From IMG/VR virus record IMGVR_UViG_3300025012_000245: 29,168 nt of DNA; one strand, written 5' to 3'. The notes under the pieces are model-generated. The model was not told the DNA's origin. It searched no databases and saw nothing but the letters and a program-made list of their open reading frames with translations. Source of the DNA: a virus. Numbering within the stretch: position 1 is the stretch's first letter; every line of letters starts with the position of its first letter. Positions 1,491 through 23,100 of the stretch are shown here, piece by piece. The position numbers and the translations under genes were made by a program.

Positions 1491-2713
1491 TTGGATACTA
1501 AATATAAATATCTTTATTTAGTAAAAGTTGAACCAGATGCAAATAATAATAAATTTTACAAACTAGTACAAACGGATGATAATAATTGGACTGCTGAATA
1601 TGGCCGCATTGGAGCAGGAGGTTTCAAACTGCATACTACAATATGAGTCACTGGGATAAAAAAGTAAGAGAAAAAGAGAAGAAAGGGTATTGTGATAATA
1701 CCAGATTAGTCGCAGAGGTTGTTGTTAAAGAAAAGAAGGACAAAGAATACTTAGACATTAAAAATCAAGTAATTGCATCTATCGTATCAAGACTTCAATC
1801 TATGGCGAGACAAGCCATTGCAGACAACTATACAATTTCTTCTAATAAAGTTACCCAAGTAATGATTGATGAAGCACAATTTACTTTAAATAATTTGATG
1901 AGTGCTGATACAATTGAATTATTCAATAAAGTTTTGATAGAATTGTTTAAAATTATCCCACGAAAAATGAAAAAGGTTAAAGATAATCTAGCAAAAAAAG
2001 TTGAGGATTTTGGAGAGATTATTCAGAAGGAACAGGATTTACTTGATGTAATGAGAGGTCAGGTGGTTACTGCATCTATAATTGAAAATGAAGAAATAGA
2101 GACAGATGAGCCTGTTAGAAATGAAACCATTCTTGATGTAATGGGTTTGCAATTTGAAGAAATTACAGACGAAGAGAAGAAAATGATTAAGAAAGAATTA
2201 GGAGAGATTAGTGATAGATTCTATCAAGCTTGGAAAGTTATTAATGTTAGAACTCAAGAAAAATTTGATAAATTTATTACTAATGAAAAAATCAAAGATA
2301 ATAGATTATTATTTCATGGATCTCGATCAGAAAACTTTTGGAGTATTATTAATTCAGGATTGGTGTTAAGACCAACTGGAGTGGTAATAAATGGAAAGAT
2401 GTTTGGGAATGGTTGCTATTTCTCGCCAACCGCCAGAAAGTCACTTGGATATACCTCGATAAGTGGGTCTCGATGGGTAAGTGGAAATGCAAATTCTGGG
2501 TTTATGGCATTATTTGATGTTGCTTATGGGAAAACTTATGATGTTCATTCATTTGATAGCAAATACTATAATTTTAATTATTAAGAATTACAAAAGGTTT
2601 GTAAAGGTGCGAATAGTCTTCACGCACATAAAGGCAAAATGTTGTACAACGACGAGATAATTGTTTATAAAGAAGATCAGATGACTATAAAATACTTAAT
2701 AGAACTTAAATAA
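1491..2713 (+). pseudogene. PARP-like ADP-ribosyltransferase (WGR + helical + ART domains), disrupted by a -1 frame break near 1641-1646 and an in-frame TAA at 2582-2584
   Basis: Frame 0 (1491-1646) encodes 'KFYKLVQTDDNNWTAEYGRIGAGGFKLHTTI*', a WGR motif. Frame 2 (1643-2584) continues the WGR end ('EKEKKGY') and helical domain, then 'LLFHGSRSENFWSIINSGLVLRP...GKMFGNGCYFSP' (PARP H-G-S and Y signature). After the TAA the same frame continues 'GANSLHAHKGKMLYNDEIIVYKEDQMTIKYLIELK*' (catalytic Glu 'YNDEIIVY') to the stop at 2711-2713. Confidence 0.8.
1643..2584 (+). CDS. PARP-like protein, largest intact reading frame (helical domain plus first two-thirds of ART domain; lacks catalytic Glu)
   Basis: ORF as it stands. 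ATG overlaps the upstream TGA (ATGA). Contains the H-G-S/Y-F PARP motifs but terminates before the conserved 'YNEYIVY'-type glutamate. Confidence 0.55.
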   Translation: MSHWDKKVREKEKKGYCDNTRLVAEVVVKEKKDKEYLDIKNQVIASIVSRLQSMARQAIADNYTISSNKVTQVMIDEAQFTLNNLMSADTIELFNKVLIELFKIIPRKMKKVKDNLAKKVEDFGEIIQKEQDLLDVMRGQVVTASIIENEEIETDEPVRNETILDVMGLQFEEITDEEKKMIKKELGEISDRFYQAWKVINVRTQEKFDKFITNEKIKDNRLLFHGSRSENFWSIINSGLVLRPTGVVINGKMFGNGCYFSPTARKSLGYTSISGSRWVSGNANSGFMALFDVAYGKTYDVHSFDSKYYNFNY

Positions 2714-2734
2714 AATATAAAGGGGATTATAAAT

Positions 2735-3034
2735 ATGAGTAATAAAAATGCTGAAATTAAAACAATTAAATATTATGGGACTAAACAATATTTTGTAGAA
2801 ACAGACGAAAGAACAGGAGAAGTTATTAAAGATAGTTCTTTTAGAATGAAACCAAAGAGTGAACGTGTTATTCATAATGATATGGCAACTATTGTTATCC
2901 TTGAAGATGGTTCAAAGGGTGTTTCAAAATGTATGCCAGAAGATGAATACAATAAGATAAAAGGAGTTAAGATTGCTTATCTAAGAGCAAAAATTAAATC
3001 TTTACATAAAGAACTTAAAACTTTAACTAAATAA
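2735..3034 (+). CDS. hypothetical protein
   Basis: ATG preceded by 'AAAGGGGA'. 99 aa, no recognisable motif. Confidence 0.6.
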   Translation: MSNKNAEIKTIKYYGTKQYFVETDERTGEVIKDSSFRMKPKSERVIHNDMATIVILEDGSKGVSKCMPEDEYNKIKGVKIAYLRAKIKSLHKELKTLTK

Positions 3035-3173
3035 TTTAACTAATAAAACAATTGAGCGAGGGACTGAAAAATCACTGATCCAGTCACAACAAAAGCCGAA
3101 TCCCAAACGGTGTGATTAATAATAAAACTGGGTAATGCTCAATTTAATTTCTTTAAAGAAAGGAAATAATTAA

Positions 3174-3886: not shown

Positions 3887-4005
3887 TAAAAACTCTATAA
3901 TTGCGAAGTTCAATTTCTAAAACCCTTGCTACAGTAGTCTTTCAGAGGTTGGACTTTCCCTTAAAATAACTATTTTATATGCTCAATAAGGAAGGAAAAA
4001 TAAAT

Positions 4006-9400: not shown

Positions 9401-9733
9401 ATGAATAAGCATATGATTGGTGAGGGAATTGTAATTAAAAAAGACTTTGAAATAGAAACTGCCTTTAATGATAATAAACTTCAAGTTAAAATCGGAGACA
9501 AAGGATATGTAGATGGTAATGGTTTTATTCATTACACAACAGGAGAAGCAAGAGGAAAAATGCAAAAAATTTCTGACGTAGTTCTTGAGGGTTATGATTG
9601 TGAAAATATTGCAACATTAGTATTTCAGAGGTTAAATAATCACTTTAATATAAAGGAGTTCTTAGATGATTATGAGATTGATAAAAAGTATTTTATTGAT
9701 GAAATTGAGTGTGCCTTGAGCGATATTTTATAA
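9401..9733 (+). CDS. hypothetical protein
   Basis: RBS 'AAAAGGAGAG'. Confidence 0.6.
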   Translation: MNKHMIGEGIVIKKDFEIETAFNDNKLQVKIGDKGYVDGNGFIHYTTGEARGKMQKISDVVLEGYDCENIATLVFQRLNNHFNIKEFLDDYEIDKKYFIDEIECALSDIL

Positions 9734-13827: not shown

Positions 13828-14073
13828 ATGAGCAAAATAGAATTTAAAAACGGAAGTACAATTGAGACGCTTGATTCAAAAGACAGTATTAGAAGCACAG
13901 GATATTTTTACCTTACAGATATAGACCAAAAAGAAAGATTAAATTATTTAATCGAAGCATTTAAAGATTTAGGCATTGCATTGAAATATACGGATGGAAC
14001 ATTCAGAGAGTTTGAATGTGTGATGTTGGATTTGCAAAAAGTATGGGGAGAATTAGAAAAACAAGAAAATTGA
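13828..14073 (+). CDS. hypothetical protein with N-terminal 'KIEFKNGSTIE' motif
   Basis: RBS 'GAGAAGGAGGAAT'. Paralogous to the ORF at 20444. Confidence 0.55.
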   Translation: MSKIEFKNGSTIETLDSKDSIRSTGYFYLTDIDQKERLNYLIEAFKDLGIALKYTDGTFREFECVMLDLQKVWGELEKQEN

Positions 14074-17346: not shown

Positions 17347-17583
17347 ATGATACTAAAATCATTTGAAGAAATGCGCGATGATGAAACAATTTGTGATTAT
17401 TGTCATCAAACAGATTATGGAGAACATAAATCTTGTGTTACACCTTCTGGATACTCATCTTGTGAAGGAATGTGGTGTGAAGAAGCTTACGAGGCATATT
17501 TAGATGATAATAATGCATCTAAAATATTAATAAAATATCAAAATAATGTAAAATTATTAAATAAGGAGGAATTAATAAAATGA
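17347..17583 (+). CDS. Cys/His-rich small protein
   Basis: RBS 'AAGGGGAAGGAGAAAATT'. Confidence 0.55.
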   Translation: MILKSFEEMRDDETICDYCHQTDYGEHKSCVTPSGYSSCEGMWCEEAYEAYLDDNNASKILIKYQNNVKLLNKEELIK

Positions 17584-18188
17584 GTACAGCACTTAAATTT
17601 GAATTTGATTTTGAAGAAGTTTTTGAGGGAATTAAGTTAGGGGTAATTAAAGAAATGTCAGAAATGACTTTTGATGATATTACCACCAGTGCGATTAATC
17701 AGATTAAAAATGAAATGAAAAATAAAATATCTCTTACATATAAAGACGAATATGAAATCAGAGACGAAATTAAAGATGAAATCAAAGAAAAAGTATATCA
17801 AAAATTAATTGCAGAAATTAAAGATGAATATAAAAAGAAGTATGAAGAAGCATTTAGTAAAGATGTGACAAATGCACTTAACCTTGCCGAAGAAGATGTT
17901 ATAGAAGAGATAAAATCTGAAACGATTGATAGGTTATATAGTAATTTGTATTCAAATATTCAAAGTCAAGTAAAATCTAAGATTAATAATTCTATATCTG
18001 AAATTATTAATGCAATCACAGGGAATAGTATTAAAGTTGAAAATACTAAAAATACGATTTCTAAAGAAGAATATAGTGAACTTCTGCACAGAGATGAAAC
18101 ATTAACTGCATTGGAAAACGGTGGAGTAGATAACTGGGAATGGTATGGAGAATCTTTAAGTAATTATTTTAAAAACAAAAATAAATAA
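17580..18188 (+). CDS. charged coiled-coil protein
   Basis: ATGA overlap. K/E-rich heptad-like sequence. C-terminal 'LENGGVDNWEWYGESL'. Confidence 0.6.
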   Translation: MSTALKFEFDFEEVFEGIKLGVIKEMSEMTFDDITTSAINQIKNEMKNKISLTYKDEYEIRDEIKDEIKEKVYQKLIAEIKDEYKKKYEEAFSKDVTNALNLAEEDVIEEIKSETIDRLYSNLYSNIQSQVKSKINNSISEIINAITGNSIKVENTKNTISKEEYSELLHRDETLTALENGGVDNWEWYGESLSNYFKNKNK

Positions 18189-20377: not shown

Positions 20378-20389
20378 TGAAATTAGTAA

Positions 20390-20413
20390 GGGGAGAGCAA
20401 CAAATATCTCCCC
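20390..20413 (+). terminator. terminator-like hairpin GGGGAGA-N10-TCTCCCC
   Basis: 13 nt after the stop. GC-rich stem, with T-rich sequence about 12 nt downstream. Confidence 0.35.
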
Positions 20414-20443
20414 TACCTCCAAATAAATTTTAATTAGAGGTGA

Positions 20444-20671
20444 TATTTAATTAAAATCGAGTTTGAAAATGGAAGCGCAATAGAATGTTTTGAATCAAGT
20501 GTTAATAGCAGAGGATACAGAAGCACATTAATTAGTTTTTATTGTTTACAATGTAACACTATTCATGTAGATTACCCGATATCTAAAATTATGTCTATTA
20601 GTGAATCGTTTTCAATATGTAAAGAAAGTTATGAAAAGATATTAGAACCATATATGAGCAAAGGAGAATGA
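20444..20671 (+). other. ORF paralogous to 13828 ('IKIEFENGSAIE...') lacking a canonical start codon
   Basis: 75 sense codons opening right after a TGA. The only in-frame ATG is at 20591. 'AGAGG' lies 9 nt upstream of an ATT codon at 20450. Confidence 0.3.
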
Positions 20672-20678
20672 GGATTTA

Positions 20679-22939: not shown

Positions 22940-23100
22940 TCAGTTCAAAGTTTAGTTTTATTCTATATAAGGTGGTGAATAATTAAATATGGATAAATAT
23001 TTGATGAATAACTTATAGATAATTTTAGGATATGTTAATTAATTCTAGTAAAATTTTGATATTCAAATAAAAAATAAAATGATAAAGGGGATTTATAAAA

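What the first reader, a model, noticed from the sequence alone, without database searches (positions are those of the whole stretch)
20444..20671. Paralog of gene 13828 without a canonical start codon (possible AUU initiation or pseudogene)
The first 17 codons after the TGA at 20441 ('IKIEFENGSAIECFESS') are clearly homologous, at nucleotide level too, to the start of ORF 13828 ('SKIEFKNGSTIETLDSK'). This frame has no ATG/GTG/TTG before the conserved motif. An 'AGAGG' SD sits 9 nt upstream of ATT at 20450. The shared 'IxFxNGSxI' motif resembles the post-Walker-B 'NGS' strand of terminase and other ASCE ATPases, hinting that both are small decoy or fragment proteins.
Basis: seen in the sequence. 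Interest (0 to 1): 0.5.

Follow-up and report, generated by a model that had tools for sequence, protein, structure and literature searches.

The report
AUU-started small terminase-like phage gene
This is a real, selectively maintained 73-codon early phage gene that very probably starts at the rare codon AUU. It belongs to a large undescribed family of tiny phage proteins whose first ~30 residues resemble a core segment of the DNA-packaging enzyme (large terminase).

Summary
The frame 20444-20671 has no ATG, GTG or TTG before its conserved N-terminus. A strong Shine-Dalgarno sequence (AGAGGTGAT, 20436-20444) lies 9 nt upstream of ATT at 20450.

It is not a pseudogene. Five distinct relatives keep the same ATT, the same ribosome-binding region and the same gene order. 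dN/dS is 0.14-0.29, including the 47 codons upstream of the first in-frame ATG. One relative (L028) carries a 1-nt frameshift. More distant homologues start with ATG, GTG or TTG.

The resemblance to ORF 13828 is real (14/24 residues, E 2e-6) but limited to an N-terminal module, M-x-K-IEFKNGSxIE...S...IRGxRSxxI. An exhaustive search finds this module at the N-terminus of 187 clusters of 40-190-aa proteins with unrelated C-termini.

Walker A and the catalytic DE are absent.

ORF 20444 adds a C2HC zinc-binding fold (AlphaFold2 pLDDT 87). Its function is unknown. The best guess is a low-dose early protein that mimics terminase core strands.

The parts
20436..20444 (+). Shine-Dalgarno sequence AGAGGTGAT. 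The GAGG core ends 9 nt before the ATT.
   Evidence: Read from the sequence. GGTGATATTTAATTAAAAT is invariant in window, L026, L027 and L028. L041 has one G>T change inside the SD, while the intergenic DNA further upstream diverges. Other genes of the window have GGAGG-type SDs 7-10 nt from their starts.
20450..20671 (+). Coding sequence of 73 codons plus TGA, proposed to initiate at ATT 20450.
   Evidence: There is no canonical start in frame before codon 48. dN/dS is 0.14-0.29, with p 3e-5 to 3e-3, in four divergent pairings. The same holds for codons 1-47 alone. Homologues of 73-79 aa have ATG, TTG or GTG starts.
20453..20545 (+). N-terminal terminase-like module, residues 2-32: KIEFENGSAIECFESSVNSRGYRSTLISFYC. 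It corresponds to the NGS beta-hairpin, the RGxRS motif and a Walker-B-like strand without DE.
   Evidence: A profile search of PDB puts T4/RB49 gp17 at the top, residues 225-258, E 0.05-0.16. tblastn of the consensus against phages gives 51 hits, and every one with an informative annotation is a TerL of the YonF type. The IEFKNGSxI scan falls inside TerL in 75 of 89 distinct contexts.
20543..20620 (+). Putative zinc site C32 (20543), C35 (20552), H39 (20564) and C57 (20618), with the strands between them.
   Evidence: C32, C35 and C57 are invariant and H39 nearly invariant in 18 homologues. The AlphaFold2 model has pLDDT 86.6. Only weak zinc-finger-like structural matches were found.
20621..20662 (+). 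C-terminal helix, residues 58-71 (ESYEKILEPYM...).
   Evidence: Helix 58-71 in the model. hhalign places it on the TerL helix that follows Walker B (VI..VLKPFL), but only at E 0.035, which is not significant. Similar 'EVLKPF' tails occur in other family members.
20390..20413 (+). Conserved stem-loop GGGGAGA-N10-TCTCCCC between the upstream 102-aa gene and the SD. There is no T-run.
   Evidence: The stem is kept with a different loop in L027 and L041. The terminator scan does not call it.
20440..20454 (+). Out-of-frame mini-ORF GTG ATA TTT AAT TAA that overlaps the SD and the ATT. It belongs to a rival explanation only.
   Evidence: It is conserved in the relatives, with TTG in L041. It has no SD of its own at a workable distance.
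13828..14073 (+). ORF 13828 (81 aa, ATG start). It shares only the N-terminal module (residues 2-26, 13831-13905) and has a different conserved C-terminal domain.
   Evidence: P0016 is identical, and 81-82-aa orthologues P0019-21, P0024 and P0029 exist. Its C-terminal half stands alone at L042:4930-5061.

Best explanation
ORF 20450-20671 is a functional early or accessory gene of a large, AT-rich phage. The phage is related to uncultured 0.46-0.74 Mb phages, and its host is probably a Firmicute.

Translation most likely starts at AUU 20450, directed by the strong SD AGAGGUGAU 9 nt upstream. An AUU start should give a low, IF3-sensitive output.

The product is a 73-aa protein in three parts:
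1. An N-terminal module that matches the large-terminase ATPase core. This is the 'IEFxNGSxI' beta-hairpin, the RGxRS motif and the hydrophobic Walker B strand, but without Walker A and without the catalytic Asp-Glu.
2. A C2HC zinc-binding knuckle.
3. A C-terminal helix.

The same N-terminal module heads a large, unannotated family of 40-190-aa phage proteins with many different C-termini. ORF 13828 is another member.

Shown: the gene is real, the ATT clade is under selection, the family exists, and the terminase motif matches.

Inferred: AUU is the initiation codon, and the output is low.

Speculative: the protein acts by imitating exposed terminase core strands. It could do so as a decoy or blocker for host sensors that recognise the terminase ATPase, or as a modulator of terminase assembly.
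For: Start site:
- There is no canonical start in frame, and the SD lies at 9 nt.
- ATT plus SD are identical in window, L026/L003, L027/L023 and L028. L041 comes from another metagenome and has one G>T change in the SD. Flanking intergenic DNA varies.
- The gene always follows the same 102-aa gene.

Selection:
- dN/dS is 0.14-0.29 (p 3e-5 to 3e-3), also for codons 1-47.
- A neutral simulation keeps the frame open in only 10% of trials at 13% divergence.

Family:
- Full-length homologues have ATG, TTG or GTG starts.
- 187 representative clusters reach E<=1e-3. Nearly all are small, with the module at residue 1.
- C-termini are modular.

Terminase link:
- gp17 is the top PDB hit.
- All 51 tblastn hits with an informative annotation are TerL.
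- The motif scan lands in Terminase_6N proteins, with RGxR and Walker B at the same spacing.

Structure: pLDDT 86.6, and the Cys/His ligands are invariant.

Context for mimicry (PMC13601566; PMC11564622):
- Upx is modelled as binding unfolded TerL core strands by beta-augmentation.
- The small TerL-ATPase-like phage proteins Ksap1 (74 aa), Ksap2 and T4 vs.8 engage Avs2.
Against: - No expression or N-terminal data exist, so AUU use is inferred only from conservation.
- L028 has a 1-nt insertion at codon ~20. The gene is therefore dispensable or broken in at least one lineage, unless that is an assembly error.
- In L041 the SD is weakened (GGAGT).
- The terminase similarity is short, about 30 aa. 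Individual E-values are weak (0.05-6).
- The 96.6% hhalign probability used terminases that had been picked for the motif. With the first 12 residues removed, nothing significant remains.
- Pfam, PHROGs and NCBIfam give no hit.
- Fold searches show only weak zinc-finger resemblance and no ATPase fold.
- Nothing links the protein to any defence system.
Confidence: 0.68

Rival explanations
1. Pseudogene. An ancestral TTG or ATG start was lost (TTG GTT became TTA ATT), and the ORF is a decaying relic that is no longer translated.
For: Homologues have canonical starts. The window's TTA ATT AAA AT aligns with TTG GTT AAA AT of the P0008 group. L028 carries a frameshift. Between window and L026 the counts are 4 non-synonymous against 2 synonymous changes.
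Against: All five ATT sequences share the change, so it predates their divergence. Since then the frame shows dN/dS 0.14-0.29 with a third-position bias, also upstream of the first ATG. The SD-ATT block is more conserved than the neighbouring intergenic DNA. Four of five copies remain open, whereas the neutral expectation is about 10% per lineage at 13% divergence.
Confidence: 0.12
2. Translation starts at the out-of-frame GTG 20440 (mini-ORF MIFN*). It reaches the long frame by a +1 shift, or by termination-reinitiation at the overlapping AUU (A-UU-AA).
For: GTG ATA TTT AAT TAA is conserved. In L041 the GTG is replaced by another start codon, TTG. The stop codon overlaps the ATT.
Against: The GTG lies inside the SD itself and has no SD upstream at a usable spacing. 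No known slippery or stimulatory frameshift signal is present. The conservation is equally explained by the SD and spacer serving the ATT.
Confidence: 0.05
3. The shared N-terminal module is a relic of terminase gene fragments spread by mobile elements (introns, inteins or homing endonucleases that target the Walker B region). On this reading it has no mimicry function, and the small proteins work through their C-terminal parts.
For: The Walker B region of TerL is an insertion hot spot. L094/L162 and L108 have TerL genes interrupted there, and L103 has an intein-like insert after DE. L018 carries a GIY-YIG endonuclease gene about 340 nt upstream of its family member. C-termini are freely exchanged.
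Against: The module is the most conserved part of 187 diverged clusters, and its N-terminal boundary is fixed. That implies selection on the peptide. Similarity among the small proteins is higher than to any terminase found. Nucleotide identity between the two window copies is no higher than their protein similarity predicts. No endonuclease lies next to either window copy. The module extends past the L094 exon boundary.
Confidence: 0.15
4. Only the short C-terminal peptide from ATG 20591 (26 aa) is made.
For: It is the first canonical start codon in the frame.
Against: There is no SD before it. Purifying selection acts on codons 1-47. Homologues are full-length, with the conserved N-terminus and zinc ligands upstream of that ATG.
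Confidence: 0.03

Closest known systems
Large terminase subunit (TerL) ATPase domain: T4 gp17 / Pfam Terminase_6N (PF03237), especially the SPbeta YonF-type TerL of large Firmicute phages
   Same: The roughly 30-residue segment 'IEFKNGSxI-x(8-12)-RGxR[SA]xxI' is shared, with the same spacing. It forms the beta-hairpin and loop leading into the Walker B strand. A helix resembling the one after Walker B may also be shared (weak).
   Different: ORF 20444 has 73 aa against 450-700. It lacks Walker A, the catalytic DE (replaced by F-Y-C), motif III and the nuclease domain. A zinc knuckle is inserted. It cannot be an ATPase and is not a terminase.
Small terminase-ATPase-like phage proteins Ksap1 (74 aa), Ksap2 and T4 vs.8, which engage the Avs2 sensor (PMC11564622; PMC13601566)
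   Same: These are small accessory phage proteins of unknown function that resemble part of the TerL ATPase. They are restricted to particular phage groups. The authors suggest they could be anti-defence proteins.
   Different: No sequence relationship was detected. For example, the tblastn search produced no Dhillonvirus or T4 hit. Ksap1/2 are modelled as a 4-6-stranded sheet with flanking helices, and vs.8 keeps Walker A and B. The present family keeps only three strands' worth of sequence, fused to varied C-termini, and comes from Firmicute-type phages. No interaction with any sensor is known.
AUU-initiated bacterial genes (infC and pcnB of E. coli; from general knowledge)
   Same: The AUU start has a good SD and is conserved among orthologues. 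Reduced, IF3-sensitive initiation is expected.
   Different: No autoregulatory logic is evident here. This is a phage accessory gene. Close homologues use ATG, TTG or GTG, so AUU is a clade-specific state.
Small zinc-ribbon / treble-clef (FYVE- or RING-like) proteins
   Same: Four invariant or nearly invariant ligands, CxxC...H...C, surround short strands followed by a helix. The best structural neighbours are zinc fingers.

Membership tests
Large terminase subunit (TerL, Terminase_6N/TerL_ATPase) | Walker A P-loop (G/AxxxxGK[ST]) upstream of the NGS strand | tested here: not met
   The protein begins at the NGS strand and no P-loop is present. Genuine TerLs found here have ASRGQGKT about 70 aa upstream.
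Large terminase subunit (TerL, Terminase_6N/TerL_ATPase) | Walker B hhhhDE with the catalytic glutamate | tested here: not met
   The equivalent position reads LISFYC(LQC). TerLs read NILIVDEF.
Large terminase subunit (TerL, Terminase_6N/TerL_ATPase) | Significant match to the Pfam or PHROG terminase profiles, and a C-terminal RNase-H-like nuclease domain | tested here: not met
   No Pfam, PHROGs or NCBIfam hit even at E<=10 or E<=1. The length is 73 aa.
Large terminase subunit (TerL, Terminase_6N/TerL_ATPase) | NGS hairpin plus RGxR motif preceding Walker B | tested here: met
   gp17 is the top PDB hit (E 0.047-0.16) at residues 225-258. All informatively annotated hits among 51 tblastn matches are TerL. 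The spacing is the same in 75 of 89 distinct motif contexts.
Genes with non-canonical AUU initiation | No in-frame canonical start upstream of conserved coding sequence, and AUU at SD-compatible spacing | tested here: met
Genes with non-canonical AUU initiation | AUU and its ribosome-binding site conserved among orthologues that are under purifying selection | tested here: met
   Five sequences carry them, with dN/dS 0.14-0.29. One of the five has a frameshift.
Genes with non-canonical AUU initiation | Direct evidence of initiation at AUU (N-terminal peptide, initiation-site profiling, toeprint) | not testable with these tools
   This needs an experiment.
Pseudogene | Relaxed selection (dN/dS near 1) with stops or frameshifts accumulating among relatives | tested here: not met
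   dN/dS is well below 1 and four of five copies are intact. L028 alone is frameshifted.
Ksap1/Ksap2/vs.8-type terminase-ATPase-like small phage proteins | Predicted central sheet with flanking helices superposable on the TerL ATPase, and binding to or activation of Avs2 | not tested
   These are known only from the papers. Their sequences were not compared directly. Our model gave no ATPase-fold match in PDB.
Zinc-ribbon / treble-clef small proteins | Four conserved Cys/His ligands arranged as two knuckles, and structural match to known zinc fingers | tested here: inconclusive
   The ligands are conserved. Structural matches are only weak.

The most novel reading that the evidence does not exclude
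The 'IEFKNGS...IRGxRS' module marks a widespread class of phage-encoded terminase mimics. On this reading, short early proteins display the same core beta-strands that host sensors of the terminase ATPase bind. Examples of such sensors are Upx-like proteins, modelled to capture unfolded TerL strands by beta-augmentation, and Avs-type receptors. The mimics would occupy or blunt those sensors before the real terminase appears late in infection. The variable C-termini would supply stability or extra activities. The AUU start in this clade would keep the dose below the level that triggers the sensor or poisons the phage's own packaging motor.
Probability: 0.15. Interest if true: 0.85.

Novelty: new variant of a known kind. 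Interest (0 to 1): 0.55.

Why it matters
There are two points.

1. Gene finders that allow only ATG, GTG or TTG miss this gene entirely, or call a 46-aa stump (P0026). It shows that a 300-nt 'gap' in a phage genome can hide a conserved AUU-initiated gene. It also offers a clean natural case of start-codon down-tuning, because sister genes use ATG or TTG.

2. The gene led to a family of at least 187 sequence clusters of tiny phage proteins with no entry in Pfam, PHROGs or NCBIfam. Their common N-terminus matches the terminase ATPase segment around Walker B. Terminase is now known to be a main trigger of bacterial pattern-recognition immunity (Avs1-3, Upx). Small terminase-like proteins such as Ksap1/2 and vs.8 are already puzzling players in that field. 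A portable terminase-strand module on early proteins is therefore a directly testable candidate for mimicry-based counter-defence or packaging control.

Tried and rejected
- **Close DNA relatives.** megablast of the region against phage records found nothing. Relatives came only from IMG/VR and JGI metagenome contigs.
- **Recoded stop codons.** I considered extending the ORF upstream through TGA or TAG, because related huge phages sometimes recode stops. The frame still has no start back to TAA 20387, so this was rejected (read).
- **DNA repeat between the two window copies.** It is not among the repeat families. Its identity is explained by the protein similarity.
- **Profile libraries.** Pfam, PHROGs and NCBIfam gave no hit for either protein.
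- **hhalign after removing the selected motif.** No significant terminase match remained. The 96.6% must therefore not be over-read.
- **Intermediate-length members** (P0168, P0178, P0067, P0044). They gave no terminase Pfam hit.
- **The phage's own terminase.** Scanning IMG/VR with a TerL alignment returned none from the relevant metagenomes among the best 80 loci. Whether the module copies the cognate TerL is therefore unknown.
- **Promoter and terminator scan around the gene.** Nothing rose above the shuffle expectation.
- **RNA hairpin covering the ATT.** The hairpin predicted is A-U only and is not conserved in L027 or L041, so it was discounted.
- **tRNA and Rfam scans of the window.** Both were empty.
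- **Literature.** Searches found no description of this family.

Full report
**What is in the sequence.** The window is 29% G+C. It is packed with short + strand ORFs, each preceded by a GGAGG-type ribosome-binding site 7-10 nt from the start. Its larger genes point to a very large phage. An 826-aa protein with major-vault-protein shoulder and SPFH domains has its only phage-database relatives in uncultured phages of 462-735 kb.

The gene map leaves a 301-nt hole at 20378-20678. In that hole the frame opening after TGA 20441 reads YLIKIEFENGSAIECFESS... and runs 75 codons to TGA 20669-20671. TAG 20435 and TGA 20441 close the frame upstream. The first in-frame ATG, GTG or TTG is ATG 20591, at codon 48. 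AGAGGTGAT (20436-20444) is a near-perfect anti-SD complement, and its GAGG core ends 9 nt before ATT 20450. Reading through TGA or TAG would not help, because no start codon occurs back to TAA 20387.

**Similarity to ORF 13828.** BLASTP aligns KIEFENGSAIECFES--SVNSRGY with KIEFKNGSTIETLDSKDSIRSTGY: 14/24 identities, E 2e-6 for the pair. tblastn against the window plus fetched loci gives E 0.003-0.005. No other real-frame copy exists in the window. Nucleotide identity is 33/48. That is far above background (15 +/- 3.3) but equal to the expectation from the two peptides and the local codon usage (31.9 +/- 2.3). Third positions agree in only 7 of 16 codons. The relationship is old and lies at protein level. 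It is not a recent DNA duplication. It also ends after about 25-30 residues.

**Is it a gene?** Relatives were fetched through the neighbouring SPFH gene and through the peptide itself. Five distinct versions of this ORF exist:
- the window;
- L026 (identical to L003, L019 and L025), 89% amino-acid identity;
- L027 (identical to L023), 77%;
- L028;
- L041, from a different metagenome.

All sit immediately downstream of the same 102-aa gene. All read ...GG(T)GATATTTA ATT AAA AT... The SD-spacer-ATT block is invariant except for one G>T change in L041's SD, while the intergenic DNA just upstream has diverged.

Substitutions are concentrated at third codon positions. Nei-Gojobori dN/dS is 0.14-0.29 in all pairs with enough divergence. 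The binomial p for excess synonymous change is 3e-5 to 3e-3. The same holds when only codons 1-47 are analysed, upstream of the first in-frame ATG. In a neutral simulation at 13% divergence only 10% of sequences keep the frame open. All five share the ATT, so selection has continued after the canonical start was lost. That argues strongly against a pseudogene and requires initiation at or before codon 1. ATT is the only near-cognate codon there at a usable distance from the SD.

One caveat remains. L028 has a one-base insertion at about codon 20 (AAC ATT TAG against AAC ATC AGA in L041), with an otherwise conserved downstream frame. This is either a very recent disruption or an assembly error.

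**Homologues with normal starts.** Protein searches found full-length homologues of 73-79 aa:
- P0009, 69% identity, ATG AGT AAA ATT GAG (L042).
- The P0001 group, ATG, behind a TTGACA-17-TAAAAT promoter.
- The P0008 group, TTG GTT AAA ATT. This aligns codon for codon with the window's TTA ATT AAA ATC.
- P0017, GTG AAA TAC AAA ATT AAA ATC.

Gene callers missed the ATT clade or truncated it. P0026 is a 46-aa call from an internal TTG in L041. The ATT is thus a derived, clade-specific state of an otherwise ordinary gene. The simplest reading is down-tuned translation.

**The family.** A profile of the paralogues retrieved 74 proteins from the word-indexed database. An exhaustive HMMER scan of 1.84 billion representatives gave 187 clusters at E<=1e-3. 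Almost all are 40-190 aa and begin M-(S/N)-K-IEFKNGSxIE-x3-S-x3-4-IRGxRS-xx-I. After that point the sequences fall into unrelated types:
- the CxxC...H...C type, to which ORF 20444 belongs;
- the '...YFYLxDIDQ...KYTDGTFREFGCVMLDLQKVW' type, which is ORF 13828 (P0016 is identical to it);
- a Cys-rich 58-aa type (L018);
- a 'CFDTVENEY...LDLREP' type;
- fusions to a Phage_ABA_S domain (P0190);
- tandem or permuted modules (P0170, P0133).

The C-terminal half of ORF 13828 occurs on its own as a 45-aa ORF at L042:4930-5061. Members occur in groundwater metagenome phages, a Clostridium MAG, and an SPbeta-like prophage region of Priestia filamentosa next to a YorE-domain gene. Pfam, PHROGs and NCBIfam have nothing for them. 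Three literature searches found no description.

**The terminase connection.** Three searches that were not pre-selected for terminases point the same way.
1. The family profile searched against all PDB sequences puts RB49 and T4 gp17 first. It aligns kIEfkNGSkIetleSk.dniRGnrsniisFyCd with [33 protein letters not shown], E 0.047-0.16.
2. tblastn of the 32-aa consensus against 2.3 Gb of phage records returns 51 records, E 0.05-6. Every record with an informative annotation shows a large terminase at the homologous site: SPbeta YonF, Lactococcus 949-type, phiCD211-type, Thomasclavelia.
3. A DNA-pattern scan of IMG/VR for IEFKNGSxI gave 89 distinct contexts. Of these, 75 lie about 100-150 residues into long ORFs and continue ...RGxRAxILxxDEF. 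Four that were tested are Terminase_6N proteins.

The module therefore corresponds to the beta-hairpin and loop that lead into the Walker B strand. It lies before Walker B, not after it. The small proteins stop being terminase-like just where the catalytic DE would be: LISFYC in ORF 20444 and YLTDID in ORF 13828.

The limits must be stated. hhalign gives 96.6% (E 5e-10) against a terminase alignment, but that alignment was chosen for containing the motif. With the first 12 residues removed nothing significant remains. There is only a suggestive placement of the C-terminal helix on the helix after Walker B, at E 0.035. Homology to TerL is likely but rests on about 30 residues. The protein fails every other defining feature of a terminase.

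**How it probably works.** The established points are these: it is a selected, syntenic small gene; it has a strong SD and ATT; it has a terminase-like N-terminal module; it has a zinc-binding core; and it sits among early or accessory genes, some behind sigma-70-type promoters.

It is inferred that AUU is decoded by initiator tRNA, giving a low, IF3-sensitive yield.

The rest is speculative. The module may imitate terminase core strands. Recent work makes this testable:
- The defence protein Upx is activated by terminase ATPase domains and is modelled as threading unfolded core strands by beta-augmentation.
- Small terminase-ATPase-like phage proteins (Ksap1 of 74 aa, Ksap2, T4 vs.8) bind the Avs2 pocket and have been suggested to be anti-defence factors (PMC13601566 and PMC11564622).

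A decoy or blocker role, or modulation of the phage's own or a competitor's packaging motor, would fit an early, low-dose protein. No evidence here addresses either role.

**Rivals.**
- Pseudogene: contradicted by selection and by conservation of the initiation region.
- Initiation at the out-of-frame GTG 20440 with a shift or reinitiation: the mini-ORF is conserved, but it has no SD of its own.
- A functionless relic of terminase fragments moved by mobile elements: the Walker B region of TerL is indeed an insertion hot spot (L094, L108, L103), and L018 has a GIY-YIG gene nearby. However, the module is the best-conserved part of a very diverse family.
- Translation only from ATG 20591: contradicted by selection and by conserved ligands upstream.

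**Verdict.** AUU initiation is the best-supported reading and pseudogene is unlikely. The 'paralogy' is a shared N-terminal module. The terminase resemblance is real but short, and its position was misdescribed. Non-AUG starts and terminase-like small phage proteins are both known kinds. The combination, and the large unannotated module family, are new variants worth experimental follow-up.

Noticed in passing
window 23101-25581 (+): An 826-aa protein with a major-vault-protein shoulder domain (E 1.8e-27), a Vault_3 repeat and an SPFH/Band 7 region. Its only phage-database relatives (about 42% identity) are in uncultured phages of 462-735 kb (LR756500, LR756501, LR756503).
   Followed up: partly
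window 1643-2584 (+): A 313-aa protein with a poly(ADP-ribose) polymerase catalytic domain (PF00644, E 2e-19).
   Followed up: no
window 17580-18188 (+): A 202-aa protein whose C-terminus (residues 159-192) matches the T7 gp5.9 RecBCD-inhibitor family (PF25708, E 2e-16).
   Followed up: no
window 2709-2740, 23060-23100, 27251-27296: A shared upstream element, AATAAAATATAAAGGGGATTAnAnATAAATG, precedes three genes: the 99-aa ORF at 2735, the vault-like gene and the AAA_24 gene. It may be a common promoter or translation-initiation signal (repeat families D4 and D19).
   Followed up: no
window 25582-25938: A 335-nt gap holds a G+C-rich hairpin (GTATGAGGGAG...CTCTCATAC) followed by a strong sigma-70-like promoter (TTGACG-17-TATACT with TG). 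The listed TTG 25917 start of the next gene has no SD. ATG 25939, behind GAAGGA, is the likelier start.
   Followed up: partly
window 20390-20413; L027, L041 equivalents: The stem-loop GGGGAGA/TCTCCCC after the 102-aa gene is kept in relatives with a different loop. It has no T-run, so it may be an RNA stability or processing element rather than a terminator.
   Followed up: partly
L018:534-3150: In this close relative the segment between the 102-aa gene and the 187-aa gene is replaced. It carries a 434-aa ORF, a 266-aa GIY-YIG homing-endonuclease-like ORF (1831-2631), a 94-aa ORF and a different member of the module family (58 aa, 2974-3150). The region is hypervariable.
   Followed up: partly
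L028:3001-3217: This orthologue of ORF 20444 has a 1-nt insertion (AACATTTAGAGG) that shifts the frame at about codon 20. The downstream frame is still conserved, so it is a recent disruption or an assembly error.
   Followed up: partly
L094:2083-4142 (also L162), L108, L103: These terminase genes are interrupted exactly at the Walker B strand. In L094 the two halves are ...ARSNRS|CEYGFAN* and, about 260 nt later, MNIIIVDEF.... No ORF lies between and there is no Rfam hit, so an intron is possible. L103 has an intein-like sequence right after DE.
   Followed up: partly
L042:4930-5061: A stand-alone 45-aa ORF is homologous (61%) to the C-terminal half of ORF 13828. That protein is therefore a fusion of the terminase-like module with an independent small domain.
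   Followed up: partly
window 3915-3965 and 9598-9648: A 51-nt direct repeat (71% identity) contains TTTCAGAGGTT. Its function is unknown (family D1).
   Followed up: no
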